Origin: Thelocarpon superellum | Taxonomy: Eukaryota | Length of the DNA stretch: 45,454 nt | Reading direction: 5' to 3' | Assembly (NCBI GenBank): GCA_026025795.1 | Contig: JAPEUG010000105.1 | Coordinates: forward strand, 1-45,454 | In this document: one piece after another, positions 11,372-40,508 of the stretch | Position numbering within the stretch: position 1 is the stretch's first letter | Layout: every line of letters starts with the position of its first letter | Notes under the pieces: generated by a model | What the model was told of the DNA's origin: nothing | Database searches by the model: none | What the model saw: the letters and a program-made list of their open reading frames with translations, nothing else | Position numbers and translations under genes: made by a program

Positions 11372-12458
11372 TCACAATTCCTTGGCTTTGTCGCGGCAGG
11401 CGGCGGGCGAGAAGCCATTGCCCACCTTGCCGGCGACGATGCGCCATCGGTCTTGCTCGTACTCCTCGATGGCGTTGCGCAATCGAGCCGTCTGCCACAC
11501 CCTTTAGCCGTCGGGTTCGGGTGCGTCTTCACCAACCCTCGAGTCGCTCACGTACCGTTTCATCCGTCCACTGCGTCGTCTTGGCCTTCAGCTTGGTGCA
11601 GTAGCGCACTTGCAGCGTGCCCGACGAGCGTCCGGGGAAGAAGTCGGCGATTTGCTTCCACGTCAGGTTCTTGTTCTCCTTCAGCTCCACCAGGAGCTGG
11701 TCGTCGTCCGACGTGAACTTGAGCTTGGGACCCCGCGGCGCGGGCGCGGGCTCCGGCATGCCTTCTTGGCCGACGACGCTCGGCGGGCCACCGGCGCTCT
11801 CGGAGGGACGACCGCCCTCCCGTCGAGCTTGCTTGGTCGGCGGCGAGTGATCCGGAAGCCGGTGGTGATGATGTTGCTGCTGTTGCGGCTGCATCGAGGC
11901 GTGGTAGATGGCCAGGTTGGCAGGTCCGCCGCCCGGTCGTGCCATCCCGAGCGAGAGGGCGGTGGGGTCCCCCTCTTCTTCATCTCCCTCCTCCCCCTCC
12001 TCCACATCAGAGTGGAGGCCCAGGAGGGACAAGTCAGAAACGTCCTCGGTCCTACGCCGTTTAGCACCGGACGGTTGTGCCAAATGTGTAGGGGTGTGGT
12101 ACCCGTAGAGTGGTTGTGCGCTGGCATACTGGGGCGAGGGCCACTGATAGGGCGTGATGTGCTGCTGCGCTAAGAGCGCGGCATGGGACTGCTCTAAGTT
12201 CCCGAGAGCACTGCCGGGCCCCATGTGCATTCCCGGCCCGCCGCCCTGCCCGGCACTTGGCTGGCGTGAGCGTGCCGGCGCGCCCCCGTGGGCATGTGAT
12301 GGGTGGACGTGATGCGGGGGCGGCTGAAGAGACTGCGACGACGACGCTTGCTGCCGCCCCGGCGGCGGTGGGCCTTGCTGGCCGTGTTGTGAGGGATGGG
12401 TCGGCGTGCCTTGATGCTGCCGTGGGTGGTGACGCTGATGTGGCGTGCTCTGCTGCAT
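11372..12458 (-). CDS. Myb/SANT-domain transcription factor (Myb-1); exons 12458-11556 and 11491-11372; true start uncertain
   Basis: Q/H/P-rich N-terminus followed by KLKFTSDDDQLLVELKENKNLTWKQIADFFPGRSSGTLQVRYCTKLK. Intron 11555-11492 (GTACGT...GCTAAA...CAG) leads into a second repeat, TARLRNAIEEYEQDRWRIVAGKVGNGFSPAACRDKAKEL*. The first in-frame ATG is at 12458, but the frame is open further upstream. Confidence 0.88.
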
Positions 12459-14987
12459 CGCGCCGTACGGATCGTCGCCCGGTGCGTCGTCGCCGTGCTC
12501 GGGGGGATAGTCCAAGGCATACTGCGTGCCTGCTCGGTATGGGCCAGCCAGCTTGGCGATGACACATGAAGCCAGCCAGAGCTCGTGTGCGCGGGGCGCG
12601 CCGCCGATCGCGTCCGGGGCCTCGTGGATGGGTGGTGACGAGCGGCAGGCGGGTTGGACGACGGCGGAAGACAGGGTGATGGGTCGAGACCGAGGCGGGT
12701 CCCGTGCTTGCTCCCGTGTGCGGTCCCGCGGCGCGTCGCGTGAGTGGCTCCCGTCGCTGGTCCCGTGTGCGGTCCACAAGCTCTGTTTGCCAGGGTGCGG
12801 CGTGGGGAGGGGGCGTGTTTGACGATTGTCGATGGCGCGAGGACAGGTCTGAGAGAGCGGAACCAGACTGAGGATCGAGAGCGGGATGGGCGGCTTGATA
12901 TCGATATGTGATGAACTTATCAGTGCGCACTGCCCTCGACTTAAGAGCAGAGCAGAGTTTGGGAGGATGGTCGAGGCGGGCGCCCTGACATGACGTTTCA
13001 CGCCCAAAGGGTGCAGCTGCGGTGTCGTCAGAGGAGCCGGAGGAAGGCGAGGGACGCCATCGTGCACGCCGAACCCCCTCAAACAGAGTGCTCAAGGCTT
13101 GACGATGCAATAACGTCTCATTTCCAGGCGAAGGCCGGCCCCTACGCCCACCCAGCAACCCCTACCGGCTCTACCGGGGACGACTCGGACTGAGTGCCGG
13201 GCGGATCAGGGCGCGGTCTCAGGGCCCGCCGCCCGCTATGGGCTGATGGGTGCGATGCCGGCCATGAGACATCCGTTAGGGCCGGCGCTGGACCCCGCCC
13301 TCCCAGCCCTAGCCAGTGGCCGAGCCAAACGCGCCGGAATCCCCTCGTGGTTCCGTTCCCGCCTGGTATATTAGGGCCGCCGTCAGGGCATTGCGAGACT
13401 TGGGCTGCACGACCTGCTGCCTTGGTGCTAGAAGGCGAGCCCGCCCGGGGTGAGGTCAGAGCACGACCGGCTTGGCATGTGAAGCGTCGCGGGGGGGGAT
13501 GGCGTAGGGTGGGGCCGTCAGCATAATCCACCGCGGCCGCTCATTAGAGCTACCTAGGTACGGGGGGGGGAAGATGCTGACGAACTTGCCACCAGCCTGA
13601 CCAGGGTCCTGGGCAGGCTGGTGGGGACCGCATGATGAAACGGACGAGGGTAGCCGTGCGTCAAAACATGGTCGAGCGCCGTCGCTTCGCCTGGTCGGCG
13701 TCGTAGCAGCAGCTACGACGACGGTGGGGGCGGAAGTGGAGGAGGCGTTGGAGCTGGTGGAGCTGGTGGACCTGGCGGAGGTGAGAGGAGGACGGGTCAG
13801 CCGCATCGGGCGAACCAGTGCATCCACAGACCAAGGCATAGTGAGGGCTCCATCGTCGAAGCCAGGGAGAATCTTTCTTCTGGTCATTGGGACAAGAACG
13901 CATGAGCCTCGCGTACTTGCCGATCCTGAAGCGATCCTCGTTTCTAAAGCAAGCACTCCATCGCGAGCCTCGGGTGAAGCATGAGAAGGGCACAGGGCCT
14001 GTGCGTACGAGCGCACGACCTGCCCGGGGCTGCGGTGCGTGCTGGGAGGGTGGGAGGGTGGGAGGGAGGGAAGGGGGACGGGAGATGGACCGGGGCAGAG
14101 CACGGTTCACTCCGCCGTGGGTCCCGGAGTAGATGGAGCTTGCTTCAGGCGCATGGGTCAAGTTGTGCCACGACAGATGCTTGCATCAATGCATCTCTTT
14201 GTCCCCATCATCGAGCTCGCCTGCGGCGATGGATACGAGAGATCGTAGATAGAGTTGATCGGTGCCCGGCACCGTTAAGGCTGGGCACTCCAGCGTGGCC
14301 TATCACCCGCCCGCCTAACCAGCGAAAGGGGGCGGGGGAGTGTTGGTCGGTGTGGGAGGACGGGCGCTGTGACGGGACCCTGGCCGACCACAGCCACCTC
14401 CGCGATGGCATTCACAACGCCGACGACACGGCATTCCACGCATCCGCGGGGGTGTGTGAGAGTTGTGCACACGGTGTGCACTATGCAGAGGGCGGAGGGT
14501 TCCATGGGGCACGTCGTGCGACATCGCGCCACGGGTTGGTGGCGACGATCTTCTCCGCGAAGGCTCAACTTGCGGGACGATACCGGGTGGGGTCTGCGCA
14601 GATACCAACTTCAAATACGTGGACTTTATGGCATGACGATTGGCCAAACCTCGACCATTGTCACAAACGACGTGCGATGCTACGTCGCCCACTGGCAACA
14701 CGACCTGCAGACATAAATTGCATACGCACACACTACACCAAAACCCCCCCTCAACACATCCTGCACGCGCTACCGCGTTCCAGTGGATTAGGCGGCCGCC
14801 GCAACGGAGGCCCTCGCCTCGGTTACGGAGTCGCTTACCTGGCACCATGGCATTGTCTGCCGGCGATGCATTGTCCTCCTAGAAGCCTTCATCAAGAGCC
14901 CGCCGGGCATGCGTGTCGTCGCAGCCGGCTCATGCTCACCCTCTGGCTACCGCTCGCGGCACATCAAAGAGAAGATCGGATAGAATC

Positions 14988-15084
14988 CACGCGGAAGCTA
15001 CGCGGAAGCCATGCGGAATCCATGCGGAAGGCCTGAGGAAGACCTGAGGAAGACCTGAGAAAGCTCCATGGAAGCCATGAAGGA
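14988..15084. repeat. Degenerate 11-bp tandem array (about 9 units, GGAAG core)
   Basis: Units cacgcggaagc/tacgcggaagc/catgcggaatc/catgcggaagg/cctgaggaaga/cctgaggaaga/cctgagaaagc/tccatggaagc/catgaagga. Confidence 0.85.
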
Positions 15085-15831
15085 CCCTCTTTAAAGCACA
15101 AGAAGAAGAAGGGCGGTACAATTGATGCATCGGGGATTTTTAATCTGCCAGGAACTAGGGCTTGTCGCAATAGGACGCGTGCTATGGCCGCGATGCCATG
15201 CCTGAATGGGCCTCGGGTCAGGTCCTCAGCCCGGGCTGGGACGCGCTCATTGGATCAAGTTTCCTCCATTTCACTCAGCTGCCGCGAAGGTCGTGTGCGT
15301 CGACTATCCGACTTCAGGCCGTGACCAAGAGATGGAACCAATACCATAGATGGTAATCCACCCCGCCGTTCCCGCAAATAGCCCCGTGGGCGGAAGCCTG
15401 ATCATGCTCTGAAAATCCTGGGACCATAGCACCCACAGCCCCGCTACGTCACTCATCCGCGGCCGCTGCGCCCTCACCTCCTTCCGGACCCAGCCCAGAC
15501 CAGATCCATGTCGCCCTAAAGAAAAGCTGGCACATGACTGCTATCGCGTGCATTGAATGGTATGTGTGAAGAAATTGAGATCACACATCGCGGCCCCCCC
15601 ATCCGTCCCCCCTTCCCTACCTCCACGCGGCGGCGGTGGCGATGTCGCGTCAAATGAAAGCATGTGGGCACGATCGTTCCTCTGTACGCCTGTGCCCCCA
15701 ATCCCTAAAGATGCCGAGTCGAAGAGGCGTAGACGGGAGCGGATGTGGACCCTGTCAGCGGTCAGGGCCGTTGCCGCAGAGATGGCCGATGTCACGGGTG
15801 GACCACCCGCGGCATCCTGACCATCTCCGAA

Positions 15832-17105
15832 CTACAATCTTCCCCCAAAGTGCTCCTTTGCGTATTGTTCGCACGCCTTTGGCTCGTCGTCATCATTAGT
15901 ACCACGCCGACATCGCTCGAGAGGAGTTGCGACTGACCTTGGCAGGCTTGCCCACCTTCTGCCCGATCACCTTCCACTTGCTCGTCTCGTACTCCTTGAT
16001 GGCGGCGAGCAAGGCCGCGCTCTGTACGTACGACCCGCTCATCAGCCTCTGCACACCATGACTGCGGCGTGACGGCGGTACTCACCTCGTCTTCCGCAAA
16101 CTCGGCATAGTGCATGTCCTGTGCGAGTCGGTGAGCCCCGGTCCACTCGGCTTGGAGCGTATCTGACATGGCACCATACCTTGTACCAGTGCTTTTTGAC
16201 GCTCCCTTCAGTCCGATTGGGAAAGGTCTGGAGTCCAGCACGTCAGCGTCACGGCCTTGGGCAGCAAGAAATATCACCATCCACGAGCCGAGATGGTCGG
16301 TGCGGAAGACGCACCTTGGCAATCTCACTCCAGCTGTTTCCAGCGTCCCGCATCGTCTTCAACCGCTGCTCCTCAGCCGGTGACCACGGCGTGTTCGTTC
16401 GACTCTTCTTCGTCGCCGGCGAGGATGACACGCCCTCGCCGCCCTCATCCGCAGCCTCCGCCCCCGACGGCGCCGTGGCAGACCCGGCTTGCGGGCCCGG
16501 GGCCTTGCGCTTTCGCACGCTTGGCGACGTCGTCTGCGGCGGCGGGGCGATGGTGCCGTATGGGGCCTGTCCGGCTAACGAGGGCTCCGCAAATGTCATC
16601 CCTGGCGCGAGCGGATCCGATCGCGCCTGCACGACAGGCTGCGTGGGATCGGGCGCCGGTTGGAGGTTTCGTTTCGACATGGGCGACGGAGCACTGTCAT
16701 TGCTCGCGTCAGTCTATCGCGAACCCCGGGTCGTGCGCGCGCGCCTGCGCCGGTGCTGCCCTGCCCGTTCATGGGTCGCCGTGGCCAGCGATTCTCGAGC
16801 GATAAGGGGACATCGCACGGCGAAGGGAGGGGCAGAAAGGAGAGAGAAGGGCGAAAGGAGACGGAGGGCAGGGGCGCGGCGGAACGGCCACGATCCTCAA
16901 CGGGAGATCGCCGGGTTACACGTGTGGTTGGTGCGCGCGGTTGCGGGGGAAGAGTGGTGGGGGAAGGGCCCGCCAGCGATGAGATGACGGCGAGCACGCA
17001 GCCAGCGACGAGAGCAGTAGCAGCACGGGGGAGGGGAGTAGCTTACCTTGCGGTGATGATCTGGTACTCAGACTGGTCGCTCGCATGGGGGAGGAATTCG
17101 TACAT
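15832..17105 (-). CDS. Myb/SANT-domain transcription factor (Myb-2); exons 17105-17047, 16693-16315, 16227-16180, 16118-16086, 16021-15938, 15876-15832
   Basis: Spliced product contains TPWSPAEEQRLKTMRDAGNSWSEIAK|TFPNRTEGSVKKHWYK|DMHYAEFAEDE|SAALLAAIKEYETSKWKVIGQKVGKPAK|ACEQYAKEHFGGRL*. Upstream exon MYEFLPHASDQSEYQIITA joins in frame via intron 17046-16694 (GTAAGC...ACTGAC...CAG). Confidence 0.9.
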
Positions 17106-18598
17106 TGGGTCAGCGGTCACGCACGGCGCGGGTCACTGGAGGTGGTGGCGGGTGTGGGTTGGGGAGTGTAACATGCGATGGGGCGCTTCGGCGACGGTGC
17201 GGAGGTCGGTCGAGTCGGGTCGAGTCGAGTCAAGTCGAGACGGGGCGAGTTCGGAAGCGGTCGTTGTGGATCGTCGTGTCCAGAGATCGGAGCCCGGCGG
17301 CGGAGCACGTCAGTGGACGAGGAGGCGGGGGGCAACGATGCGGGCCAGGGTCGAGCGGCGGCGATATGCGAGGATGGCATGCAGCTCTTCGTAGCGGGAC
17401 CGGACAACACCCGCGATGCGATACCACGGAAGGCCGACGGCGGAGGTATCTGGCGATTTACGGAGTACTTGGCCTTCTGTACGAGGGGGGCCGGGTAGGG
17501 TGGATGGGGAGGCGACGGCAGCGGCAGCGACAGCGACAGCGACGGCGGTCGTGGTCACAGTCGGTCGCGGTCGCAAGAATAGCCCGGAGCCGCAGCAGCG
17601 TCGGGAGGCGAAAGACAGCAGCACAGACAGGTACGAGTACAGGCACAGGTCGGGGGAGAAGCAGTGAACACCAAAGGACGCAGGGCGTGGGTGTCGTCGG
17701 TGCGGAGCGCTGGGTAGCGGGTGCTGGGTCGTGAATGCTGGCTGGCCGTGTCGCTGATGGCGGTCCCTCACCTGCCTCGCCCAGGCGATAGGCACTACGG
17801 TCGCTACGGTGGAGTCCCGCCCAAGGCCGGTCCCGCCCACTCTCCCCTGCTCGTGGCCCCACGACTCCCGTCGGCGGGGGACCAATGCGGGGTAGACAAA
17901 GCACGGGGGGCTGGCAGCACCACGATAGCGGCGGCCACCGCCGCCCCGACGGGCCTGCCGCGGTCCCAGCGCGCGCCTTTTGCGAGAGAAACGGCGTCAG
18001 ATTCGCCAGCGCGCACTTGGCCCTTGACCCTTGGCCCCACCACGCGAGTCCGCTGAGCACGCAACATCTACAAGGGCGGCGCGATGTCCGATGGGATCCT
18101 GCACGATCACTGGGGGCGAGCGATGGGGGTGGTGGGGGGACCACGGAGGGTGTGGCGGCGCAAGAGAGGAATGAGGGAGGGAAAGAGCGGCGCCGTCGCG
18201 CTCGCCTCGCACCGGGAAGGCTCCGAGGGTCGAGGGTGAAGCGATTGCAACTGAGTGGGCAGCCGAAGCGAGCGATGAAGCGAAGCATGCGGCGCCCCAC
18301 CCGTTCGAACTCGCTCCGGAACGCCGCTGCCACGACACATCCAACACGTCCAACAGAAGCATCGGCTCTCCAACGTCGCAGGGAGTGTGCCCGAGACATC
18401 GGCCCTCCGCACACAATGCTTCAATCATTCCGACATGTCCTCGGTGGGACCTACACACGATGCTTCAATCACGTTCGGTGAGTGCGCGCATAATTGGAGG
18501 GGATGATTCGACACGCTCGTGTCGGGAACGCGGGGGCCCTCCGACACGGCGGCGCTGGCTGCAAGCCTGCGGGCGCGGAGCCTCGAGGCTGGAAGCAA

Positions 18599-18635
18599 GA
18601 GGCACGAGGCACGAGGCACGAGGCACGAGGCACGA
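18599..18635. repeat. Tandem heptamer (GAGGCAC)x5
   Basis: Direct reading of the sequence. Confidence 0.9.
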
Positions 18636-18797
18636 AGGCGTGCGCCGCCGAGGGTCGGGCTCGCCGCCACCTCTCTCGGCTCTGCGCATTGCCCAGCTGC
18701 AGGTCTTAGTGGTAGCCAGCAGCGGTCCATGGATTGGGCGCATTTCGTGCATTTCGTTGCCGCGCAGTAGTCGCCCGTCGGAGTGCCCAAGAGCAGA

Positions 18798-18869
18798 GCA
18801 AGTAGCAGCAGCTGTAGCAGCAGCTGTAGCAGCAGCAGTAGCAGCAATAGAAGCAGCAGCAGCAGCAGC
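18798..18869. repeat. Imperfect (GCA)n trinucleotide microsatellite
   Basis: gtagcagcagctgtagcagcagctgtagcagcagcagtagcagcaatagaagcagcagcagcagcagc. Confidence 0.85.
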
Positions 18870-19527
18870 GTCTATGAGCACGAGTGCACGCGGAGGAGAA
18901 GGGGCTATTCGAAAGGGCGCATAACGCATGCTGTGGCCCTGGTTTCGATCGTCCAACCTTCTGGAATATCATGACGCGCTCATCATCTCCCGTTCCTCGT
19001 TGGTGCGGTCTCGTTGAGGTCACGAGTGGCTCCACGGGGAAAGAAGGTGGCACAGTTGTGTTGGAGGACGCAGCGGCGTCGCTATTGGCTAGCGAAGCGG
19101 GCCGCCAAAGGCCGTCCGGTTCCGACCGAACGTCTCGTAGTGGTTAGGGTGGAATTTGGTTTCGCTGTTGAAACCCCTGGCCTGCATCTTGCACGATCCG
19201 CTCGATCCCATCTCCGCCCGTCTCCTGGATCGCTCAGCTCTTGGCGCGGCCGCGACCGCGACCAGCCGATCCGATCCCCTCTTGCCCACTCGGGCCACCA
19301 CGTCCTTCGAGGCCTCTGCACAAAGCCGACCCGAGACGTCTAGAAGTGCACATCCGTGGGGATGTGCACGGATGTGCCTATTCTTACCATCAGAGTTGCG
19401 CCTGACGTTCGCTCCAGCCTTTGCTCCAAACTTTGCACGCCCGACCCCCATCCGCGCGCGCGAGAGCGTGCGATGACATCGCAGGAAAGTGTAACGGAGG
19501 TTCAGGTTCATATGTGCGACACTCGAG

Positions 19528-19578
19528 GCCACGGGGCGCACAGGGCGCACGGGGCGCACGGGGCGCACGGGGCACACG
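19528..19578. repeat. Tandem 9-mer (GCACGGGGC)x~5, imperfect
   Basis: gccacggggcgcacagggcgcacggggcgcacggggcgcacggggcacacgg. Confidence 0.88.
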
Positions 19579-21822
19579 GTTGGGGCGAGCCGCGTTCCTG
19601 CTGGATGTCGAGAACATGTTTTGTGGGGATGACAGGATGGCGCGAGGTGGCGAGCCAGCATATGTGTTCCTGTAATCTGGAGGGATAAGATCCCAGTCGA
19701 TTCGATAATTGATAAGGACGACTCTATGTAAAATGTGTCGACTGGGGGGACATTTCAATTGAATCGTTGCAGTCAAAAAGCAAACCCCGGTCGAGTCGGC
19801 GGGCACACGAGCCGCCCGCTTAACCAATGAGGTTCAGGCGAGGGAAGGAACAAGGCTGGGAAATAGCGAAGGGATCGTCCGACAGCAACGAAACACTTTA
19901 CCTACCTTGCCCGCACGGTTCACGGCCATGGCAAACTGGAATTTCTCCGCTCCGACGCAGATTTCAGGAGAACCCGTGTGCTGAGGAACCGCAGGACAGG
20001 ACCGCACAGACCGTACGCGCCTACCTGACGCACTCACACCCGGACAGGTTGCTTTGTCCTTTGTGCTGGGAGTCGCTCTTGGCATGATCGGATCCCCTCG
20101 AGACGAGCCTGAGTAGTAGGCGACGACGAGGGCGACGATGTGACAAACCTTGCACGATGCAGATGTGTCGGGGCGAAGGGGTGTGTGGGTGCGAGTGTTC
20201 GGTGGGGTGTTCGTGGCGAGGGGCGGATGTACCTCCGTACCTCCGTGCGGGTACGGAGTAACCTCGAGCGCGCAAGTATCCGTGTTAGCTTACGCGATCA
20301 TCCGATGCTGCTGGAGTTTGGTCGGGTTCATGCAACAAGACGTTCAGCGTTCGCCGTTCATGCTTCGCCTCACGGGACTTGTGTCGGATGGCAGAGGCGC
20401 AGACGAACGGGTATGGTCGATGAAGCAACACGCGACGAAGCGACGAAGCATTGCTGTACCTGGCGCTGCCACCGTTTCCAACGTCCTCGCCCCGTAGCTG
20501 TTAGCTTGCCGATGCGGCGAGCCCGGGTGCGCGGATCACCGCAAGCTCTGGGCCACCAGCTCCGCCGTGGCTGCTCCGCTGCTATTCGAGGCTCGCGTGC
20601 GGATCGGACCAGGGGACGATGGCTGCTCGATGGGCCTCGGGTGCCAATCACGGCCTGTGTTGGGCGCTGGCCGGCTTTCTGGGTTTGTCGTTTGGGGAGA
20701 CGACAGCTCTGGCAAGGCCTAGCCGCGGTCACCAACGCTCGGGCCTGGGAGCTGTCGTGGGTAATTTGGTTAAGGCTCGGTAGCCGAGTTTCGGCTGCAA
20801 CGCCACTTGGCCGCCCAGCGCTGACGCGAGACAACCGTCTGAACGAGCATCCTGATTATCCCAGTTAGTGCGGGCGAACCCTCGACCCTCGCGCCGCTGC
20901 ATAGCACGTCTCGACTCGCACACTGGCAAGCTTCGTTGCGACCCCCGTCTCCACCCCTCCGGCCATGACCATGGCGCTGTCGACGCGGATCCCCCCCGCG
21001 AGGGGTGAACGAGGCCCGGTTCAACGTCAAGCGCTCTCGCACGTCCCACCTTGCAGCGGCCCGGCGAGCCCTCCCACGTTTGCCGTGGCCTGCATCCAGC
21101 ATCGCGCGTCAGGAACGGCGGCCATCGAGGAGCCCCCCCCGGCCTCCCACCCCACCGGCGCCGGACATCAAACGTATCTGCCGATCGAGCGCGCGAGTGA
21201 GTGAGGGACCCGGGCGGCCAGAACGGCGACCAGGCGGTCAGGTCTCGTCAACCCTCCTCTCTCCCTCCTGGCTCAATCGGGGCTGGCCTCCACACGCGGC
21301 AGCGCAAGTGTGGGTTTGAAACGTTGCCCCATCGGACCTCTGACAAGGTCTCGTTGATATGATGGCGCTCGATCGCTCACAAAGTTCATACACGCTCTCC
21401 ATCTCTAACACTTCATCTTCTCGAACAGAACGCCAGACCCTGGTGTCAAAGTCCTGATTCTATTACCGGTGCTGCGACACGGTTCAGGAGACTCTTGGCT
21501 CTGCTTCCCCTCCCATCTGCTGGACCTCACTCTTATATCACCCTCCCCGCCCGCTCCATCATCTCTCTTCCCGCCTCTACCGTCCAGCACCACTCTCGCT
21601 TTCTTGCCCCGCTCTCCTCTACTCGTGCGTCGTGCATTCCCACTGGTTGGGCCGGTCTTTGCACTTCACTTCACTTCTCTTCTACGGCATCTGGCTCTGC
21701 GAGCCCCTTGTCGTCGCTTCTCCTACCCAGCAGCCAGTTCGTGACTGTTGTCGGCTTCTCCCACGCCACCTCCACTACCCCGCTCCTCGTAATACTCTCG
21801 GATCCTCCGTTGTACCTCCACC

Positions 21823-23003
21823 ATGGCTACCGTTAGCATGAGCATGAGCCCCGCGGCTCCTACGGCCTACCCCCCCAATGAGCACGCGGTCTCGCCTATG
21901 AGCGCGGTCGAGCGTCATGACTTTGGCGCCCAGAAGAACCGCAAGTACTCCTCCACGGGCGGCGGACGCGCCTGGACCGAACAAGAGGTGAGCAGTGACC
22001 CCTCCTCCGTTCCCCACCCTCTCACTCGGATGCTCATATCCTGCAGGAGGTCTACCTTCTCCAGACACGTCTCCAAAAGATGCCCTACAAGCACATCGCG
22101 GCCCACCTCAAGAAGACGGAGTTGGCCTGCCGTCTCCACTACCACCAGCTGTCACATGGCACCAACCGCCGCAAGCGTGCGACGTCCATCTCCTCGTGCT
22201 CCTCGGGCCAGTCCCCCATGACGCCGGAGCAGCGCATGTCCCCGGACGTGGAGGTGGCCACGGCCTTTGCCACGCCCGACCGGTCGCCCATTGAGGGGTC
22301 TGTGAAGCTCTGGAACATCCGCGAAGACGTGGCACATTCGCCCTCGGATTCACCCCAGATGGCGCAAAAGCCGCTCCTACCCAAGCCCATCTCGGCCTAT
22401 CCCCGTCACGCGCGAGCCATCAACAAGGTGCTGCGCCTGGACTGCCGCACCAACATCGGCCGGACCCGGCCAATGATCAACCGTGAACGGCTCCGACAGG
22501 TCTACGAGGCTCATCGGGTCAGCTTCTGGAAGATGATCGCGGCGGACTACGGAGAGGGCGCAGATCCGGCCATGCTGGAGGAGATCTGGCGCGACGGCGG
22601 CGTGCAGGGCTCGGCGACACCGCAGAGCTCGATGGCATCGCTGAGCTCGATGACACCCGAGTCGGCCGTCGAAGACATGCGACTCGGTGCTGAGGTGATC
22701 CGACGACTGGCGCCGTCGGCCTTGCCTCCGCTGGGCCCGTCGGATCGAGAGCGTGCCTTCAGCCCGATCAACCGCATGGGATCGTCTGCGCTCAGCTACG
22801 GCACCAACGCTCGCACCTTGCCGGCCCCGCACTCGCACTCGTCGCCGCCGAGCGCCAAGCCCGGCAACGGATCGGATATGCGTGCCACGGCTATCTCCAA
22901 CCTCTTGACCGAGAACATTGAGACGAGGCGATCGCTCAAGCTCAACACGAACGCCGTCGGTGACCGTGATGAGCCCATGAAGGACGTCGCGTCGTCGGCA
23001 TGA
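21823..23003 (+). CDS. Myb/SANT-domain transcription factor (Myb-3); exons 21823-21987 and 22047-23003
   Basis: GGGRAWTEQE|EVYLLQTRLQKMPYKHIAAHLKKTELACRLHYHQLSHG Myb repeat across intron 21988-22046 (GTGAGC...GCTCAT...CAG); a second helical block RLRQVYEAHRVSFWKMIAADYG; C-terminal TAISNLL motif. Confidence 0.9.
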
Positions 23004-23956
23004 TACGACACCAGGGATAGTCGACTCCGGTCGGCCGGCCTGAAACTATGTACAGAGTGCGGACTGCCTGTTTTCTTTTGGCTCGGCGCTCGGTGTGGAT
23101 TTGGATTCGCACCCACGGTCCTTTCTGGAAAATGTGTTCTCCTTGTTCCGTTCATCCTACACACGTCACCGACCTTCGTCACCCCTTTGCACTGATGGAT
23201 CGAGGAACGATCTGGCGTGTCTGCCCGCTTTGACGCTATCCTATTTTCTCCATAATACGAGTCCGCTCGGTTTACGGTCCCTACCACGCCCATTGTCCGG
23301 GCCATGAGATGAGCTGAGAAGGTTCTTTTGATGTGGATTGTGAATCTTGAATCACATGTCTGATGAATGAGCTGTCCTTCTGACGTAGCGTGAATCGGTC
23401 GGCCTGAGACAAATGATGTGACGAACGAACGGATGGAGTGGACAGGTGAACGATCGAAGGAGGCGAATGTTGGAGGTTGATGATGATCGTGTCAGCTCGT
23501 CGCAGCTGACATGGCTAACACATGGGCAGGGACAAGCGTGCACGTAACGAGGATCACCGCTACTGGCGAAACCACGGCAGGGCGCTCCCCCGAACTCTGT
23601 CCAGCAGACTTCGTGAGGGAGCACGCAATGCCATGGGAACTGCTATACTGGGTATTTTAGCCCACCGTAATTCCTACGGAGTGCGAGTACACTCGCACTC
23701 TTGTCGCCACGCCTCGGATCTGTAGTGGGCAAGATGTTGACGAACCAATCGGGATCTTTCCGGCCGCGACATACCATGTCGCAGTAGGCAGAGCTTTTAT
23801 GAGTGGATTGGTTCTTCTAGCTAGCTAAGCCGGGAACGGTGGATATACCCAGGCTAATCCTGGGTCAGGTGACCGTAGCGTCAGGTGACCGTAACATACC
23901 ACCCACCACACCCCACGGCGCTGAGACTGGCATCTCTCGATGGACGACATTGTACG

Positions 23957-25024
23957 ATGCCCCCTCGGATGGAGCGTACGACTCCGTCATCCGCTCCCTC
24001 CTCGCGTCCGCCGATCCAAACACTCCGCCAAGCTCGCAAACAATATCAGCGCTCGACCAACACCTGCAACCTCTCGGCGGTAGAGCTACGACGGCTCGAG
24101 CGGGCCGCCGAGCTCCAGGCGCGGGCCGATGCCATCAAGGAGAAAGAACGGCGGCGCAAACAGAATCGTGAGCGACGCGAGCGCAGACTCCATCGGGAGA
24201 AGGCGGCGGCGGGTCGGCGGGATAGTGCCGCACGCGGGGACGAGAACAAGGGAGATGGCGGTGACGATGGGGACGAGGCCGGCCCGCTGATGGTCCCGCG
24301 CAGCCAGGAGGTGTTGGGCACATTCTGGGGCCCGGGGAAGAAGCGAGGGGGCCGAGCTGCAACACTAGCAACGGACTCGACGGTCGAGGGTGCGGAGGGG
24401 TCGGAACAGCGTGCCGGTCGTGGAGCTCTAACAGACCTGTCGACCAACGTCTTCAATGCAGCTCTAACGGCACCCCCCAGTCCGACATGTGAACGATCTG
24501 TCGCACAGTCGACTCCCTCTATCTCGCAACATCACTTCCTCCCGCCGTCCCAACCTGCGTCCTCGATGCGACAGCAGCTGGCTCTACCCGAGTCCGACCA
24601 CGGAGAAGAAGCTGGAGACTGGGACTCGCTCTTCCCCAGCAACACTCAAGTTCAGCGGGAGCTATCGCAGGACGTATCGGCCGCGAGATCAGCACGGATT
24701 TCTCCACCACCACGACCGCCCCCCTCACATCCACCATCTCGACCGGCTCCGGCACAGCCCATACGCCTTTCTCCACGGAATGAATGCGACGACCTGGAAG
24801 AGGTGCTCTCGACGCAAGATCTCGAAGTCACCCATGCAGACCTAGCGGAGATCAAAGCTTGCACACGGACAAGACAATCTTCGCCTGACCAGTCACTTGG
24901 TCCACCTCCTCTGCTAGACAAGGAGGATGTTTCCCAACGAAAACACGAAAACGACGGAGAGCGAGAACGAGAGAAATGGGACGAATCGTCCAACGTAGAC
25001 GAAGAGGTGCTTCGACTCCTCTAG
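23957..25024 (+). CDS. Hypothetical protein with N-terminal charged coiled-coil and disordered S/P/acidic C-terminus
   Basis: Uninterrupted frame from ATG 23957 (MPPRMERTT...) with coiled-coil-like LSAVELRRLERAAELQARADAIKEKERRRKQNRERRERR and a DWDSLFPSNTQVQRELS motif. Function not recognised; start uncertain. Confidence 0.7.
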   Translation: MPPRMERTTPSSAPSSRPPIQTLRQARKQYQRSTNTCNLSAVELRRLERAAELQARADAIKEKERRRKQNRERRERRLHREKAAAGRRDSAARGDENKGDGGDDGDEAGPLMVPRSQEVLGTFWGPGKKRGGRAATLATDSTVEGAEGSEQRAGRGALTDLSTNVFNAALTAPPSPTCERSVAQSTPSISQHHFLPPSQPASSMRQQLALPESDHGEEAGDWDSLFPSNTQVQRELSQDVSAARSARISPPPRPPPSHPPSRPAPAQPIRLSPRNECDDLEEVLSTQDLEVTHADLAEIKACTRTRQSSPDQSLGPPPLLDKEDVSQRKHENDGEREREKWDESSNVDEEVLRLL

Positions 25025-26928: not shown

Positions 26929-29139
26929 TTAGACCGTTGGCGCCCGCCGTAAACCAATACAGTACCGTACGAACAGGGCGTCAATGAAGTGATCGTGCTT
27001 GATTCCCGGAGGCCGACATTGCGCAAATTCGTCAATCGCTGCTCGTACCTTGTACCCTCGTCGCTCGACCAGGTAGGCGACGATGAAGAAGCCGGTGCGA
27101 TTGAAGCCATAATGGCAATGCACGCCGATCAGAGGACCCGGAGCAGCTGAATCATCCGCGGGATTGGAAGTCTTCTTTCGCTCAGATAAGAGCTGATCGA
27201 CCAGATCCACAAACTCCCTCACCTCCTCCACAGTAGGCGGGATCTTGCTAACGGTCGCGAGCTTGTGATACTTGACCCCACCTTTCTCCAATCCTCGGGG
27301 GTCGTAGACAGGACTCTCGTGGCTAATGTCAATCACGTCGGTGATTCGACCCGCCCATTCGCGAACAAAGATGTCCGGTCGATGCCGTTCATCAACCTCT
27401 CGCAAGGTCTTCATGGCGCAGAAGTGGCCATCGATAGGGGTCGACACTGGCGCGACAGCCTGCCACTTTTTCAAATTTTTGACATCCCATTTGCCTTCAG
27501 TGGATAGGTACTGTAGTTGCCATCCCAATGAGAGCCGAAGCGAGATGTGAGCAGCCATGAAGTCGGAAAGAAGACCTGAAACGATGCGAGCCGTGGCAGG
27601 CATGTACATGAGCCCATGCGCGGCTGGACTAGGGACAACAGTCGTCTTGAGAACGCTGCGGATGGGCTCGGCAGCAGTCTCTGGAGATGCGCTGGCCATA
27701 GCTCGTCCCGCGGAAACCGTATTGTTCACGTCACTCGGCAAAAGGGAACGAATGGCGGTGTCCCCGCTGTCGAACGAGCGTCCCAAGAAAGCGGCAATGT
27801 CTTCGACCTCTTTGGCTTTCGTGACCGCATCGTCTTCGCCGGCGATGAGTAGCACTGGAAGGTTGAGACCGGCCCAGACGTCTTTCCCGGGAAATCCTCC
27901 TAAATAAGTCCCGCCCTTGTCGTGTTTGGGCAGTAGCCCCCAGATCATCCGCTTCAGCACAGCCGTGTTGCTCTGCGCATTGAATCGCGCTTGTAGTCGG
28001 CGAGTTTCGGTGTCGGCATTTCGACCCACGAAACGGATGACACTGGGACTGTCTAATCCCCCGCGCCGATCCCATGCACGCCAGGCATCCCAGACAAAGT
28101 CAGGCAGATACAACGCCCGCCGAGCGGCGCGTGCGTCAGCCGCCGGGGGGCCAGTTGCCTTGGGACAAATAGCGAGCAGTCCGGCCGTCTGCTCGACTAG
28201 TTTGCTCGGATATGGGGAGGTGGGAGAAGCAAGCAGCGCGGCTAACGAGCAGCCCATGCTGTGACCGATCAAAATAACCTTTTGACCAGCGTCTTGATCG
28301 CGGTGCTCCTCGATGACGGTGGCGAGGAGCTCGACCAGCGCCTCTGTGGTGTATCCATCCCAGGATTTGGGCGCAAAGGACGACAAGCCACAGCCCGGTA
28401 GATCAATCCCCAGACAGGGTGCGAGATGTACGAGGCTGGTGAGGAGCGGATGGAATTGGGCTAGTGAGCCGCCAAGGCCATGGATGAAGACCAACAGCGG
28501 TAGTGGCGCCGGAGTAAGCGGGAGCTTATCAGCCTGAGGATGAGGTCGGTAAAAGGTACGAATGCCAGGATAGGTGAGTCCTCGACGGGGAAGCGTGTAG
28601 GATCGGGGTTTGGAGTGCCGATTGAGCAACGGCGGATCCACGGCTGATTTCTCTGATAAGGATCCGCCTTAGCCATTGACCTGGAATGGATGGGATCCGC
28701 GAGAGAAACGCAACTCACCAGAAGAGTTGGAGGATCCATCGCTCGACCCTCGTCCCGAGCGACCAAGGTTGCGAATGGAATCATCGACATCCCGGTCGTC
28801 TCGACGAACTTTGCCGACCAGGAGCCAGAGCGTCGACATAAACGCACATGTTGCAGCTAATCGGACCATCCCCCAAGCGTCAAGTTTGCTCGTCTGGGTT
28901 TTGATATACCCATCAAAAGCGGAGGCAGGTGAGACGTCGTAGCAGTGACGAATCCACTCGCCGAGGCCGGACCTTGTCCTTTGGATCGTTGTGAAGCTGG
29001 TTGTCTGCGCTGGTCTGACAGATCCACTGGACGTTGTGGTCGTCGATACCTTTCCTGCTGCAACGGTAGTCTGGACGAAGAGAAAAGCAAGGACGCCGAG
29101 AATCGTGATGTAGGACATGCGGGCGGATACATTGGCCAT
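26929..29139 (-). CDS. Fusion protein: hydrophobic N-terminus + alpha/beta hydrolase + dual-specificity (PIR1/DUSP11-like) phosphatase; exons 29139-28719 and 28652-26929
   Basis: FIHGLGGS oxyanion motif, GHSMG nucleophile elbow and IAGEDD acid; C-terminal P-loop VHCHYGFNRTG. Intron 28718-28653 (GTGAGT...GCTAAG...CAG) joins an upstream exon with hydrophobic segments (YITILGVLAFLFVQTTV; LAATCAFMSTLWLLV) in frame. Confidence 0.88.
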
Positions 29140-32731: not shown

Positions 32732-34070
32732 CTAATTTGTCGTCGTCGTCTTGTCTCCTGCCCGTCCCTTTCCTTTCTCGTTCGTGGCCCCGCCACCCTC
32801 TCCCTGTTCCTCCTCCTCTCGCTTCCCTTCTTCCCCCTCATCGTCCTCTTCATCCTCGTCATCCAGGTCCTCCAGTGGAAAGGTCAGCAACGCCGCAATG
32901 CCACCGAGGGCCTCGAGGCGCTGGCCACTCTCATGCATGCTCGAAAGGACTCTGGCGTCGCCGCCCTCGGCCTTCACCGCGTCGACAAGCCGCACCCAGC
33001 GACGGCGGGCGCCGACGTCATGGCTGCGAAACAGCGCGTTGCTAACGAGCAGCACGCCGCCGCCTCGGCCCACCGCGCCCTTCTCCACGGCGCGCTCGAC
33101 CTCGCGCGGTCCGTACCACGCGCGCCCGTCGTCTTTGCGCAGCATCGTGAGAAATTGCTCCATGTACCGCGTTTCGCGTGCGTACTTAGTATCTTTGAGC
33201 CGGGAGAGCACTTCGGGCGATTGCAGCACTTCGTTGAGCGCGTGCACGTGGCCAGACGAGGAGTGCACGACGATGAAGTTCTTCTTCTGCGCCAGCAGGG
33301 CTCGGTCGTTGCTTTCCCGCGCATGGTTCATGGTGTATTCGAGGAAAGAGGCGGCGGTGAAGCCTGGAGAGGCCAGGAGGACGGGCTTATTCGAGACGGC
33401 GGAGGCGCTGTTGCTGACGTCCGCGTGCCGAAGGAGCGTACTCAGCACCAGGGCAAAGAACTTGGCCAGCCCCTTGTCATGGTCCGCGGCTCGGCCGGCG
33501 CGTTTCCGCGGAATGGTGGCTTCGACGCGTTGGCGCAGGATGGTCTGATGCTCGGTGATGAGGCAGATGTTGGCCAGGCCTTCTTGCATCACGACGGCCA
33601 CGACCTCGGCGCGCTTGGTGGGGTCGGTGGCATCGTGGAGGGCTTCCAGCGCCACACTGTCCCATCCCTCCGCCTTGGACAGCGTAAAGGGCCGAGAGAG
33701 CGTCAGGTCCAGGGTATGGTGCGCCCCGACTTTCGTATAGGCGTTCTCCGCCGCGATGATGCCGCTGATGTGGAGCTCGGCCGCTTGCGAATCGAAATCG
33801 AGTCGTTGCACCGTGATCAAAAAGGTCGTGTGGATTCGTGTAGACGACGTACTGCCCGTGCTGGACTCGGTCGTGACGCGCCGTAGGGCGGAGGCCAGTA
33901 GTTGGTCGCGGGGCCGGATGAGATTGTAGGCATGCCACTGACAGAATCAGTCTCGTTGCGTGGATGCATCTCGCCTCGATGATGATGCATACCATGTCTT
34001 CTGGCTCTTCTGGGAGAAGGGTGACGCTCCCGGAGCCATCCCGGTCCAGGCTCTTCTTCAAGATGCGCAT
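32732..34070 (-). CDS. DOM34: Ribosome rescue factor Dom34/Pelota; exons 34070-33993 and 33937-32732
   Basis: MRILKKSLDRDGSGSVTLLPEEPEDM|WHAYNLI..., GAHHTLDL, AWYGPREVERAVE, SSMHESGQRLEALGGIAALLTFP, then an acidic tail. Confidence 0.96.
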
Positions 34071-34475
34071 CGTGCACGAATGCACGTTGAATGGACGTAC
34101 GCGTCCAGGTGCGTGGTCGGTCGTTCGTGATACAGGATGTGTAATGACTGTCCGTTTGACCTCGGCGACGGTAGCCCCGCTACCGCACTACATCCCCACA
34201 CGCTTCAGCAAGGGCCTGAAGCCGCATACGTCGAAGGTGACATCAACGCCTAGCTTTTTCCATTCGACCCATTTCCCAACATTCCTCGCCGGAAAGCATC
34301 GTCTGCTCAAGTCGACACTCCATCACTCGGGTACAAAGTACATTGTTGTAATCGTCGTGAAGGGTAGTACGAGATAACAAGTGACCACGCATGTCATTAT
34401 AGAGACCAGGGATATCGAGATCGCCCGAAAGATTAGCCGAAGACGTCACGCAGCTCCAACAATAGCCGGCACCCG

Positions 34476-35613
34476 TCATCTCGCCGGACCATCCCTCCAC
34501 TCCTGTCCATTATCAAGGCCCTCAACGGCCGCATCCACATCTCCGGGCGCAGCCAAAACGCCGTCTGCATCATCGTCGTCTTCTTCCAGGATGCCCGCCA
34601 GCTCATCTTCGGTGCCGGGCTCTCGTGTGGATGATGCCTGCTTCTTAGACAGCACGTCGACTACCCCTTCGTCCGCCGAGACGGAAATTCCTCGCGCACC
34701 CCACCGGCCCGCTGGCTTCGGCCGGCTGTCGGCTCCGTCTGCTGCTGGCGCTTCTTCGTCCCCGTGATCCACGTGCTTCGTGCCGATGATCCGGCTGACT
34801 AGCCACCCTTTGCTCAAGTCCTCCGAGTCGACGATGCCGCCTCCCCGAAGCTTCACCCGCTGCCGCGACCAATACACCCAGGCAAAGTCGCAATACAGTG
34901 CCGTCTGGATGACGCCGAAGATGATGGCGATGGGGTGAGATGGGCCGGGGTGGTCATCTGCATCGGCCGCACGCGCGATCCAATTGAGGATGTAGAAGGC
35001 CCGATAGGTGCCGAGCGCGAGGAGATAGAACGAATCGATCACCGTGGGCACGGTCGTCTGTCGGAGGAGCAAGAGTTGCGGAAGCACACAAACCGACTCC
35101 AAGACCTCAGAGAAGGACCATAACACCTACACGGGATGAGCACCTCCACCGCTAGAGGCCAAGCGAGGACACACACCTTCACCAGCCCTGTATGCGACCG
35201 CTCAAAAATGAGCGTGACCAGGGGAGCGGCGACCAGGGCGCCACCCAAGCAGGCGCCGCCCAGCTTCCATGCCTTCTCCCGCTCCCGAGTACGGGGGTAG
35301 ACGCGCATCATCAACACGATGACGTAGATGGATGAACAGATGTAGAAGATCTTGAGCACAAAATTCCACCATGCCACACTCGGGGGGACCCAAAACAGGT
35401 CCAGGTAGCGAGTGACAAAGACGAGGACATAGAGGCCCTGGGTGATGAGTGATACCCCTGTCCATCGGGTCAGCCACGACGCCGCCCAAGCGAGGCGGGG
35501 ACGAGTGACCCACCTTCGGCGCTCTTGTTGGAGTGGATGGCCCAGATGAGGATGCATTTCGACAGCGTGTGCGAGATGTCCCCTAGCAATCGAAAGACGT
35601 TCCACACCCCCAT
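34476..35613 (-). CDS. ERD2: ER lumen protein retaining (HDEL) receptor; exons 35613-35514, 35457-35177, 35126-34476
   Basis: NVFRLLGDISH, SAE|GVSLITQGLYVLVFVTRYLDLF, WSFSEVLESVCVLPQL, LGTYRAFYILNWI, GVIQTALYCDFAWVY; long acidic C-terminal extension. Confidence 0.93.
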
Positions 35614-39267: not shown

Positions 39268-39273
39268 TATAAA
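39268..39273 (+). promoter_or_regulatory. Candidate TATA box (TATAAA) for Myb-4
   Basis: A TATAAA in an otherwise GC-rich region, about 145 nt upstream of ATG 39417 and followed by a pyrimidine-rich leader. Confidence 0.5.
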
Positions 39274-39416
39274 CCTGGCGCGTCCGCCCTCACCGCACCC
39301 TCATCCTTCCTCGCTCGGACGTTGCTCGACGGGCCCCCCTCCCCCCGGCGCACGCCCCCGTTGACGCCCTGGCTTCCCTCGATCTCTTCCCGCCGCACCG
39401 GCAGCATCCCAGCTCG

Positions 39417-40508
39417 ATGCTGGAGGACTTCTACCTGCACGAATTCGAAGCCATGAGCCAGTACAACGAGGCCGACTGGGTGCCCAATTGCACGGTACGT
39501 GCCCATCCGTGCCCGCTGTCGTCCTGCCACTGACCCTTCACCCCGTGTCCAGACCGCGCTGGGTCAGATCTCGTACTGCGTGGATGATACCTACCTCACC
39601 CCTCAGCTCACCTCCGCCGACACGGCCTCCTTTCCCGCCACCCCGGCGACCAACCGGCCCCGGAGCAGCGCCGGCTTCTACAACCAGGATGTGGAAGGGA
39701 TCGGGCGACGCCGCAGCCAGAGCGCTGGCTACTATACCCCGCATTTGGATGACCTCACCTATCACCAGGCTGGTCTTGGAATCAAGCACGAGAGTCCGCA
39801 GACCCTCAGCTTTGCCCCCCTTGACTTTGCCAAAGGCCCGGCCGGCTCGGCGGCGCCTCCCAACCACTTCTTCGGTAGCCTCCCTGTGCCGGACATGAGC
39901 TATGCGGCGCCGCGACTCGCCCCCGTTCCGATCGCGCCCAACCCGGCCGGTGGGCAGAAGCTTGGCTCGCTGAAGCGTGGCCGCGAGGACGAGACCAGCG
40001 CCGACGTGGCGGCCAAGCGCACGCGGCGATCGTCGGTCAACACGAACAACTTGGAACTGACTGAGGAAGAACGGCTCTTGCTGCAGCTGAAGGACGAGAT
40101 GAACCTCCCGTGGAAGGATATCGCGCTCCGGTTTCAAGTGGAGCTGGGCAAGAATCACCAAGTGCCCGCCTTACAGATGCGATACAAGCGGCTCCGGGAA
40201 CGTCTCCGGGTGTGGACCGAGGTTGATGTGAGTGCACCGTGCGACGGCCGCCGTCGGACCACAGCCATATCCATCGTCCTGACCACCACGCCCCACAGGT
40301 GCAAGCGCTGCAACAAGCTCGCGACTACTGGGAGAAGTTCAAATGGGACATCATCGCGCTCAAGATGCTGGACTTTGGCTGCTCGGAGAAATGGCCGGCC
40401 AAGTACTGCATCCGCAAGTGGGAAGAATTACACCCGGACGCCGACATGTCCAAGGAGCGGGCTGGCTCGGACCACGGCACGCCCGAGCTTCTGACGCCAC
40501 GCGGGTGA
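39417..40508 (+). CDS. Myb/SANT-like transcription factor (Myb-4); exons 39417-39494, 39553-40227, 40299-40508
   Basis: LTEEERLLLQLKDEMNLPWKDIALRFQVELGKNHQVPALQMRYKRLRERLRVWTEVD|VQALQQARDYWEKFKWDIIALKMLDFGCSEKWPAKYCIRKWEEL; introns 39495-39552 and 40228-40298 are canonical. Confidence 0.88.

What the first reader, a model, noticed from the sequence alone, without database searches (positions are those of the whole stretch)
11372..40508. Cluster of four diverged Myb/SANT regulators sharing one intron position
Seen: four Myb-type genes in 29 kb (11372-12458 -, 15832-17105 -, 21823-23003 +, 39417-40508 +), three of them consecutive. Outside the repeats they show no obvious similarity. Yet each has a phase-0 intron exactly four codons after the first aromatic residue of a Myb repeat: WTDET| (11555), FAEDE| (16085), WTEQE| (21988), WTEVD| (40228). 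In Myb-1, -2 and -4 the following exon starts the same degenerate second repeat (LRNAIEEYEQDRWRIVA / LLAAIKEYETSKWKVIG / LQQARDYWEKFKWDIIA). Inference: ancient tandem duplication produced a paralogous transcription-factor cluster that has stayed linked among housekeeping genes, possibly a co-regulated developmental cassette. I do not know of this being described as a unit.
Basis: partly seen in the sequence, partly recalled or inferred. Interest (0 to 1): 0.8.

Follow-up and report, generated by a model that had tools for sequence, protein, structure and literature searches.

The report
Ancient linked fungal Myb paralogues
Four real Myb-type regulator genes have stayed close together in several classes of filamentous fungi, and their odd second repeat is predicted to pair protein copies rather than bind DNA; ordinary neighbouring genes stay linked too, so a co-regulated cassette is not shown.

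Summary
The four Myb genes and their phase-0 introns are real, at the stated coordinates, and each intron is conserved in orthologues. None of 17 unlinked Myb/SANT genes of this genome has the intron. It is homologous in only three genes: Myb-1, -2 and -4 carry it in repeat 2 and group together (87/83). Myb-3 carries it in repeat 1 and groups with an unlinked gene (93/84); monophyly of all four is neither shown nor rejected (p-AU 0.116). Linkage is old: Myb-1/2, Myb-2/3 and Myb-2/4 stay together in 3 of 3, 4 of 5 and 4 of 5 named assemblies from several classes. But PRP8, COX4, DOM34 and ERD2 stay linked too, the block is broken in Sordariomycete-like loci, and the Aspergillus orthologues are only partly co-expressed. 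New here: AlphaFold straightens repeat 2 of Myb-3 and Myb-4 into a long helix, and a Myb-4 homodimer is predicted through repeat 2 alone (0.63, best control 0.00). Best reading: old local duplicates of a fungal Myb subfamily that binds DNA with repeat 1 and dimerises with repeat 2, inside a conserved microsyntenic block. I found no description in print.

The parts
11372..12458 (-). Myb-1 (orthologue of A. nidulans AN4524): disordered N-terminus, repeat 1, degenerate repeat 2 at the C-terminus; start codon uncertain
11492..11555 (-). Myb-1 phase-0 intron, four codons after the first Trp of repeat 2
   Evidence: conserved in 70 of 80 loci
15832..17105 (-). Myb-2 (orthologue of AN4527), six exons, repeats 1 and 2 at the C-terminus
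16022..16085 (-). Myb-2 phase-0 intron at the homologous site of repeat 2
   Evidence: 13 of 13 loci
17106..21822 (.). 4.7-kb divergent intergenic region between Myb-2 and Myb-3; head-to-head layout kept in other classes; no conserved non-coding element detected across classes
21823..23003 (+). Myb-3: N-terminal repeat 1, separate degenerate repeat 2 (about 22460-22590); closest to the unlinked C7/AN5118-type gene
21988..22046 (+). Myb-3 phase-0 intron at the W+4 site of repeat 1 (not repeat 2), in a GAG|G context
   Evidence: 6 of 6 loci
39417..40508 (+). Myb-4: below the Pfam threshold; repeat 1 three-helix HTH; repeat 2 predicted as a homodimer interface
40228..40298 (+). Myb-4 phase-0 intron at the homologous site of repeat 2
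76..7314 (+). PRP8, conserved neighbour
8711..9487 (-). COX4-like gene (conserved exons; identified by eye and by the position of AN4525), between PRP8 and Myb-1; conserved neighbour
26932..28668 (-). alpha/beta-hydrolase plus dual-specificity phosphatase gene; linked in L071 and probably in A. nidulans (AN4531)
32735..35126 (-). DOM34/pelota and ERD2 (main exons); linked to the Mybs in Eurotiales

Best explanation
A filamentous-ascomycete Myb subfamily with one DNA-binding repeat and one degenerate repeat duplicated locally before the Pezizomycotina classes split. Myb-1, -2 and -4 descend from one ancestor that had the repeat-2 intron. Myb-3 comes from an older sister branch (with the unlinked C7 and C722 genes), and its repeat-1 intron is a separate gain or an old retention at a recurrent Myb intron site. 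The copies sit in a slowly rearranging microsyntenic block with PRP8, COX4, DOM34 and ERD2, and different lineages have cut it at different points. Mechanism: repeat 1 is a three-helix HTH that binds DNA (fold predicted; binding inferred). In repeat 2, helices 1 and 2 fuse into one long helix that pairs antiparallel with a second copy, apparently with swapped last helices. Each protein would then act as a dimer presenting two repeat-1 heads (predicted for Myb-4; inferred for Myb-1 and -2 from conserved interface residues). They are probably nutrient- and development-responsive regulators with different targets, since the recognition helices differ. Shown: genes, introns, orthology, linkage. 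Predicted: fold and dimer. Inferred: DNA binding, role, duplication history.
For: Profile cross-scores over both repeats: M1-M2 37-39 bits, M1-M4 36-42, M3-C7 39, M3 profile to M1/M2/M4 11-12. Tree of 41 rows, 96 columns: six fungal types against FlbD/CEF1/REB1 98/91; M1+M2+M4 87/83; M3+C7 93/84. Repeat-2 signature: Ala258, aromatic 262 and Lys273 in all 25 M1/M2/M4 rows; Tyr259 instead in all 11 M3 rows, C7 and C722. Linkage by locus tag and equal contig length: M1/M2 3 of 3, M2/M3 4 of 5, M2/M4 4 of 5, M3/M4 3 of 5. Neighbours are linked too: AN4523 PRP8, AN4525 COX4, AN4530 DOM34, AN4531 hydrolase; Myb-3 is annotated fused to ERD2 in Paecilomyces. AlphaFold2: Myb-4 helix 249-276 and Myb-3 helix 205-227 are continuous, pLDDT above 85 there; repeat 1 of Myb-3 matches Myb repeats (best Z 7.3, rmsd 1.7, 49 aligned). 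Homodimer of Myb-4 residues 190-300: score 0.63, best of 3 controls 0.00, runs agree in at least 97% of contacts, pLDDT at least 86, interface only in residues 242-295. The mark was reached by 21 of 30 microbial pairs and 0 of 23 single chains; in eukaryotes by 17 of 29 pairs (1 of 7 without an older solved relative) and 0 of 30 single chains. No solved sequence relative of repeat 2 was found (best E 0.23). AN4524 and AN4527 both rise in nitrogen starvation and fall in veA and mtfA nulls.
Against: Supports are moderate. With 18 rows M1+M2+M4 drops to 70/78, and holding all four together is not rejected (p-AU 0.116). Single-repeat trees are unresolved; there repeat 1 of the unlinked C178 gene groups with M1 and M4. 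The M2-M4 cross-score is only 11-12 bits. C7 and C722 are single rows. The dimer was tested for Myb-4 only and is a model's confidence, not a measurement; 'swapped' is my reading of the contact list. Myb-1 and -2 were not modelled. In 4 Dothideomycete-like loci with Myb-2 upstream and 10 kb downstream (L047, L078, L080, L081) the Myb-2/Myb-1 link persists without PRP8 or COX4, which fits selective retention as well. No DNA-binding data exist for any member.
Confidence: 0.55

Rival explanations
1. A selectively maintained regulatory cassette: the four proteins heterodimerise through repeat 2 in combinations, as bZIP or bHLH factors do, and stay linked for co-expression or dosage in a starvation-to-development switch.
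For: Linkage across Lichinomycetes in the wide sense, Geoglossomycetes, Lecanoromycetes, Dothideomycetes and Eurotiomycetes. Head-to-head M2/M3 layout in 5 loci plus L100. The locus-tag gap between M2 and M4 varies from 4 to 9 while they stay linked. Shared interface residues. AN4524/AN4527 contrasts correlate (Spearman 0.52, p 0.04, 15 contrasts, no control pairs).
Against: Same sign in only 8 of 15 contrasts; opposite in veA1, osaA and pH 8. AN4524 falls in conidia while AN4527 is not among the listed changed genes. The pair is inverted in A. nidulans. In 5 of 12 loci with a full 10-kb upstream flank (3 of 9 after merging near-identical ones) PRP8, not Myb-2, lies upstream. M1 and M3 are on different megabase scaffolds in Xylariales PMI_506, and M3 and M4 on different long contigs in Sarcosagium. 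Non-TF neighbours are linked too. No shared non-coding element across classes. Single deletions are mild.
Confidence: 0.2
2. Passive linkage only: distantly related Mybs lie in a conserved block, the W+4 introns are parallel gains at an acidic-codon proto-splice site, and repeat 2 is an ordinary second DNA-binding repeat.
For: Myb-2 and Myb-3 donors follow GAG. The same offset occurs in two different repeats. An intron in repeat 1 of 3R-MYBs is described as broadly distributed in eukaryotes (PMC5405339); I recall it lies at W+4 but did not check. Tree supports are moderate.
Against: Myb-1 and Myb-4 donors follow ACG and GAT, not AG. 0 of 17 unlinked genes have the intron. M1, M2 and M4 share a repeat-2 signature. 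Clustering by chance was 19 of 200,000. Two independent models give a non-HTH repeat 2 and the dimer passed its controls.
Confidence: 0.15
3. They are SANT-like protein-interaction or chromatin-complex subunits, not sequence-specific transcription factors.
For: Myb-3 and Myb-4 are at or below Pfam thresholds and their motifs are absent from a curated A. nidulans TF table. In Myb-2 the Asn of the c-Myb R3 recognition helix is replaced by Lys.
Against: Repeat 1 is 75-82% identical over 102 residues across classes in Myb-1, with basic recognition helices and flanking basic clusters. There are no other chromatin domains. Expression is strongly regulated.
Confidence: 0.1

Closest known systems
A. 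nidulans AN4524 and AN4527 (PMC11199622, PMC8396895)
   Same: Orthologues of Myb-1 and Myb-2 by sequence; about 5 kb apart next to PRP8 and COX4; introns confirmed by RNA-seq there
   Different: Listed singly, AN4527 as having no paralogues; now convergent; no cluster or dimer described; the AN4527 deletion showed no reported defect
N. crassa rcn-1/NCU07834, F. graminearum GzMyb007/FGSG_02538, M. oryzae MoMYB9
   Same: Myb genes two locus numbers from PRP8 (NCU07832, FGSG_02536), so probably Myb-1 orthologues (position only, sequence not checked)
   Different: Sordariomycete-like loci lack Myb-2 upstream; phenotypes are mild (reduced conidia for rcn-1; none significant for MoMYB9)
R2R3/3R-MYB factors (c-Myb, FlbD) and CEF1/CDC5
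   Same: Tandem Myb-derived repeats; Myb-2 repeat 1 aligns with c-Myb R3 (E 4e-12)
   Different: Repeat 2 lacks the Gly turn and is modelled as a long helix and dimer interface; the six fungal types are set apart from FlbD/CEF1/REB1 at 98/91
A. nidulans AN5118 (the C7 gene here)
   Same: Same two-repeat architecture; nearest relative of Myb-3
   Different: Unlinked; no W+4 intron
PF22980 Myb_DNA-bind_8 gene arrays (earlier scan findings e1-7653711, e1-7647138)
   Same: Conserved arrays of diverged Myb-like genes in ascomycetes
   Different: Small single-repeat proteins; no PF22980 hit here

Membership tests
Myb/SANT repeat proteins (PF00249, PF13921) | Score above the Pfam gathering cut-off: Myb-1, Myb-2, Myb-3 | tested here: met
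   Myb-1 55.3 bits (cut-off 22.9), Myb-2 50.7 (24.4), Myb-3 orthologue P0336 25.2 (22.9); the window's own Myb-3 exon 2 gave no hit
Myb/SANT repeat proteins (PF00249, PF13921) | Score above the Pfam gathering cut-off: Myb-4 | tested here: not met
   18.9 bits against 22.9; no hit at E 0.001 for the full protein. Profile homology to Myb-1 is 36-42 bits
Myb/SANT repeat proteins (PF00249, PF13921) | Three-helix HTH in repeat 1 | tested here: met
   Models of Myb-3 and Myb-4; Myb-3 best match is the Cdc5 Myb repeat, Z 7.3, rmsd 1.7, 49 aligned; Myb-4 matches generic HTH domains
R2R3-MYB (c-Myb/FlbD type) | Two adjacent repeats, each folded as an HTH | tested here: not met
   Repeat 2 of Myb-3 and Myb-4 is a fused long helix plus a short helix in the models; Myb-1 and -2 were not modelled
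R2R3-MYB (c-Myb/FlbD type) | Sequence-specific binding of an AAC-core site | not testable with these tools
   Needs binding assays; recognition residues differ
Tandem paralogue cluster of four | All members form one clade | tested here: inconclusive
   Best trees put Myb-3 with unlinked C7; p-AU 0.116 for holding the four together
Tandem paralogue cluster of four | Homologous intron in all members | tested here: not met
   Repeat 2 in Myb-1, -2, -4; repeat 1 in Myb-3
Tandem paralogue cluster of four | Linkage conserved across distant lineages | tested here: met
   M1/M2 3 of 3, M2/M3 4 of 5, M2/M4 4 of 5, M3/M4 3 of 5 named assemblies; Myb-2 upstream of Myb-1 in 7 of 12 full-flank loci
Co-regulated regulatory cassette | Members more linked than flanking non-TF genes | tested here: inconclusive
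   Neighbours linked in Aspergillus, Acarospora-like and Sordariomycete-like loci; not within 10 kb in Dothideomycete-like loci; no genome-wide null
Co-regulated regulatory cassette | Co-expression | tested here: inconclusive
   Two of four genes, one species: rho 0.52, 8 of 15 same sign, no control pairs
PF22980 Myb_DNA-bind_8 arrays | PF22980 match | tested here: not met
   No hit

The most novel reading that the evidence does not exclude
Filamentous ascomycetes turned a Myb repeat into a domain-swapped dimerisation module and built a combinatorial network of Myb homo- and heterodimers. Four members have been kept linked since before the Pezizomycotina classes split because they act as one starvation/development switch. 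The main model fungi hide it because they split the block, and two members fall below domain-annotation thresholds.
Probability: 0.17. Interest if true: 0.85.

Novelty: new variant of a known kind. Interest (0 to 1): 0.55.

Why it matters
Old linked paralogous transcription factors are uncommon in fungi: dispersed duplication is described as the main route for A. nidulans zinc-cluster TFs (passages). A Myb repeat used for dimerisation would be a new use of a textbook DNA-binding fold. It predicts palindromic or spaced sites and possible partner exchange, and could explain the mild single-deletion phenotypes. Myb-3 and Myb-4 are conserved across classes yet escape standard TF catalogues, so they are untested regulators. 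All of this can be tested in laboratory model fungi.

Tried and rejected
No RNA holder was listed for window 11301-21300. NCU07846 as a cluster member: a recalled lead, rejected because it is a zinc-finger protein. MYT1/MYT3 of F. graminearum as this cluster: their locus numbers (FGSG_00318, 00324) are far from PRP8 (FGSG_02536); sequences not compared. A fifth Myb in the window: pan-family profiles found only the four. Further close paralogues in the genome: single-protein searches added only the C7/C722 pair and canonical Mybs; weak hits on C423 and C41 were chance. Conserved non-coding elements between the window and 15 loci: none; the only hits were COX4 exons. Fold searches listed no match for repeat 2, but the rows covered repeat 1 only, so this is untested. 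ESM Atlas for Myb-4 gave ascomycete Myb-like clusters under 0.9. Single-repeat trees were uninformative. Literature searches for a described cluster or dimer found none. The library lacks most subscription papers; bioRxiv supplements and one picture-only PDF supplement of PMC11199622 could not be seen. Dot6/Tod6 as the nearest characterised yeast relatives is a recalled lead, not tested.
Full report
Observation. The window is a whole 45,454-base fungal contig (G000:C8). Protein searches returned identical NCBI models labelled Thelocarpon superellum. Gene order: PRP8, COX4, Myb-1, Myb-2, Myb-3, an unknown ORF, a hydrolase-phosphatase, ILV3, DOM34, ERD2, Myb-4, PEX2, and an importin-like gene (COX4 and the importin by eye). 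The four Myb genes splice to open frames of 340, 215, 373 and 320 aa, with phase-0 GT-AG introns at exactly the reported positions. Outside the repeats none of the 6 pairs is similar (best E 2.1). Random placement of 21 genes in 19.15 Mb put four within 29 kb in 19 of 200,000 trials.

The intron. It is conserved in each orthologue set. Myb-1 has it in 70 of 80 metagenome loci; 5 are unclear and 5 lack it and read like spliced transcripts. Myb-2 has it in 13 of 13 loci and Myb-3 in 6 of 6. RNA-seq notes say the predicted introns of AN4524 and AN4527 are processed (PMC8396895 supplement rows). None of the 17 unlinked Myb/SANT genes found in this genome has it, though an exon-wise search can miss split, diverged repeats. 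The position is homologous only in Myb-1, -2 and -4, where it lies in repeat 2. In Myb-3 it lies in repeat 1, and Myb-3 has its own intron-free repeat 2 about 150 residues further on. Myb-3's site has a GAG|G proto-splice context. An intron in repeat 1 of 3R-MYBs is described as widespread in eukaryotes (PMC5405339, passages); that it lies at W+4 is my recollection, unchecked. So the site may recur, and it marks three genes, not four.

Relationships. Profiles over both repeats give M1-M2 37-39 bits, M1-M4 36-42, M2-M4 11-12, and M3-C7 39 against 11-12 for M3 to the other three. C7 is an unlinked gene orthologous to AN5118. A 41-row tree separates six fungal types (M1-M4, C7, C722) from FlbD, CEF1 and REB1 at 98/91, with M1+M2+M4 at 87/83 and M3+C7 at 93/84 (P0064, P0375 and the single-repeat C178 were left out). 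With 18 rows these supports fall to 70/78 and 87/81, and forcing the four together is not rejected (p-AU 0.116). Repeat-2 residues split the same way: Ala258, aromatic 262 and Lys273 in all 25 M1/M2/M4 rows, Tyr259 in all 11 M3 rows, C7 and C722.

Linkage. M1/M2 are linked in 3 of 3 other assemblies (Geoglossum umbratile, Taxawa, A. nidulans). M2/M3 are linked in 4 of 5 (Trichoglossum, Kuettlingeria, Bachmanniomyces, Cirrosporium; different contigs in T. impressellum). M2/M4 are linked in 4 of 5 (Piccolia, Trichoglossum, Glutinoglossum, G. simile; not T. impressellum). M3/M4 are linked in 3 of 5 (T. impressellum, Trichoglossum, Lineolata at scaffold level; not Sarcosagium or the short Chaenotheca contigs; Macrophomina could not be judged). 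M1 and M3 are on different scaffolds in Xylariales PMI_506. Of 80 loci fetched around Myb-1 (184 confirmed, 80 kept), 12 have a full 10-kb upstream flank. Seven of these have Myb-2, 4 also Myb-3 in the window's order and orientation, and 5 have PRP8 instead; merging near-identical loci gives 6 of 9 against 3 of 9. The triplet loci resemble Pleosporales and Acarospora. Myb-3 also occurs in a Pezizomycete. No Sordariomycete or Aspergillus name appears among the 95 Myb-4 hits, a search limited by length and word seeding.

The control matters. In A. nidulans PRP8, Myb-1, COX4, Myb-2, DOM34 and a hydrolase are AN4523, 4524, 4525, 4527, 4530 and 4531 (PMC11199622 supplement rows). In Paecilomyces Myb-3 is annotated fused to ERD2. 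COX4 is linked in 5 of 80 loci and PRP8 in 8. Four Dothideomycete-like loci keep Myb-2/Myb-1 without PRP8 or COX4 in 10 kb, while Sordariomycete-like loci keep PRP8/Myb-1 without Myb-2. The block breaks on both sides, so excess Myb-Myb linkage is not shown.

Expression and phenotype. AN4524 and AN4527 both rise in nitrogen starvation and fall in veA and mtfA nulls, but move oppositely in veA1, osaA and pH 8. Over 15 contrasts rho is 0.52 and 8 have the same sign, with no control pairs. The AN4527 deletion had no reported defect (bioRxiv 10.1101/2021.03.09.434684, passages). The probable Myb-1 orthologues, assigned by position next to PRP8, give reduced conidia in Neurospora (PMC5592922 passage and table row) and no significant phenotype in M. 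oryzae (PMC8660761 supplement). Motifs of Myb-3 and Myb-4 are absent from the A. nidulans TF table.

Mechanism. AlphaFold2 models of Myb-4 and a Myb-3 orthologue fold repeat 1 as a three-helix HTH, but fuse helices 1 and 2 of repeat 2 into one long helix. Repeat 2 lacks the Gly of the canonical turn. Two copies of Myb-4 residues 190-300 scored 0.63 against a best control of 0.00, with at least 97% agreement of contacts and pLDDT of at least 86. The mark was reached by 21 of 30 microbial pairs and 0 of 23 single chains, and in eukaryotes by 17 of 29 pairs (1 of 7 without an older solved relative) and 0 of 30 single chains. The interface lies wholly in repeat 2 (242-295): antiparallel long helices, with residues 288-292 of one chain on residue 255 of the other, which I read as a swap. 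No solved sequence relative was found. The interface residues are kept in Myb-1 and -2. I therefore propose dimeric regulators that bind DNA with repeat 1. This is a prediction for one protein; heterodimers, DNA binding and targets are untested.

Comparison and novelty. Myb-1 and -2 are catalogued singly. Searches found no description of the linkage or of a dimerising repeat; the library lacks most subscription papers. Other papers seen as passages only: PMC4650311, PMC8062887 (plus supplement rows), PMC3462118, PMC4603784, PMC4825928, PMC4549623, PMC3778014; PMC3983115 as a listing only. Earlier scan notes report arrays of a different Myb-like family (PF22980), for which these genes have no hit.

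Verdict. A real, old and apparently undescribed linkage of three paralogues plus a cousin, inside a conserved block, with a credible new structural role for the second repeat. The co-regulated cassette remains a minority reading. Interest 0.55; new variant of a known kind.

Noticed in passing
L100:2987-3540: Myb-3 repeat 1 runs straight, out of frame, into the conserved part of Myb-1, with Myb-2 divergent upstream; a mis-assembly or a deletion/inversion at a short shared word.
   Followed up: partly
L089:7400-7600: Decayed duplicate of the Myb-1 repeat-1 exon with stops and a frameshift, about 2.6 kb downstream of the intact gene: a recent local duplication that died.
   Followed up: no
window 23879-25021 +: Disordered 381-codon ORF with no Pfam hit; ESM Atlas features match unnamed ascomycete clusters at 0.90-0.94.
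   Followed up: partly
window 26932-28668 -: alpha/beta-hydrolase fused to a dual-specificity phosphatase domain; also linked to the Mybs in L071.
   Followed up: no
G000:C178:1113-1235 (L011): Unlinked single-repeat Myb whose repeat resembles repeat 1 of Myb-1 and Myb-4 (23-30 bits); no repeat 2 seen.
   Followed up: partly
G000:C782:39323-45146 (L005, L016): The FlbD-like gene has a second, single-repeat Myb-like gene about 5 kb away.
   Followed up: no
L061, L065, L080, L081: This Dothideomycete lineage lost the Myb-2 intron inside repeat 1 but kept the repeat-2 intron.
   Followed up: no
L087:6934-7717: A BTB-like gene (by eye; no Pfam hit for the exon scanned) is inserted between Myb-2 and Myb-1 in Acarospora-like loci.
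   Followed up: no
window 16694-17046: Long first intron (353 bases) of Myb-2; the A. nidulans orthologue is noted as alternatively spliced in intron 1 to a nonsense product, a possible regulatory feature.
   Followed up: no
L078 against L047, L070, L100: Intergenic DNA between the Myb genes is 70-82% conserved over 0.4-1.5 kb among Pleosporales-like loci; may reflect long UTRs or close kinship.
   Followed up: no
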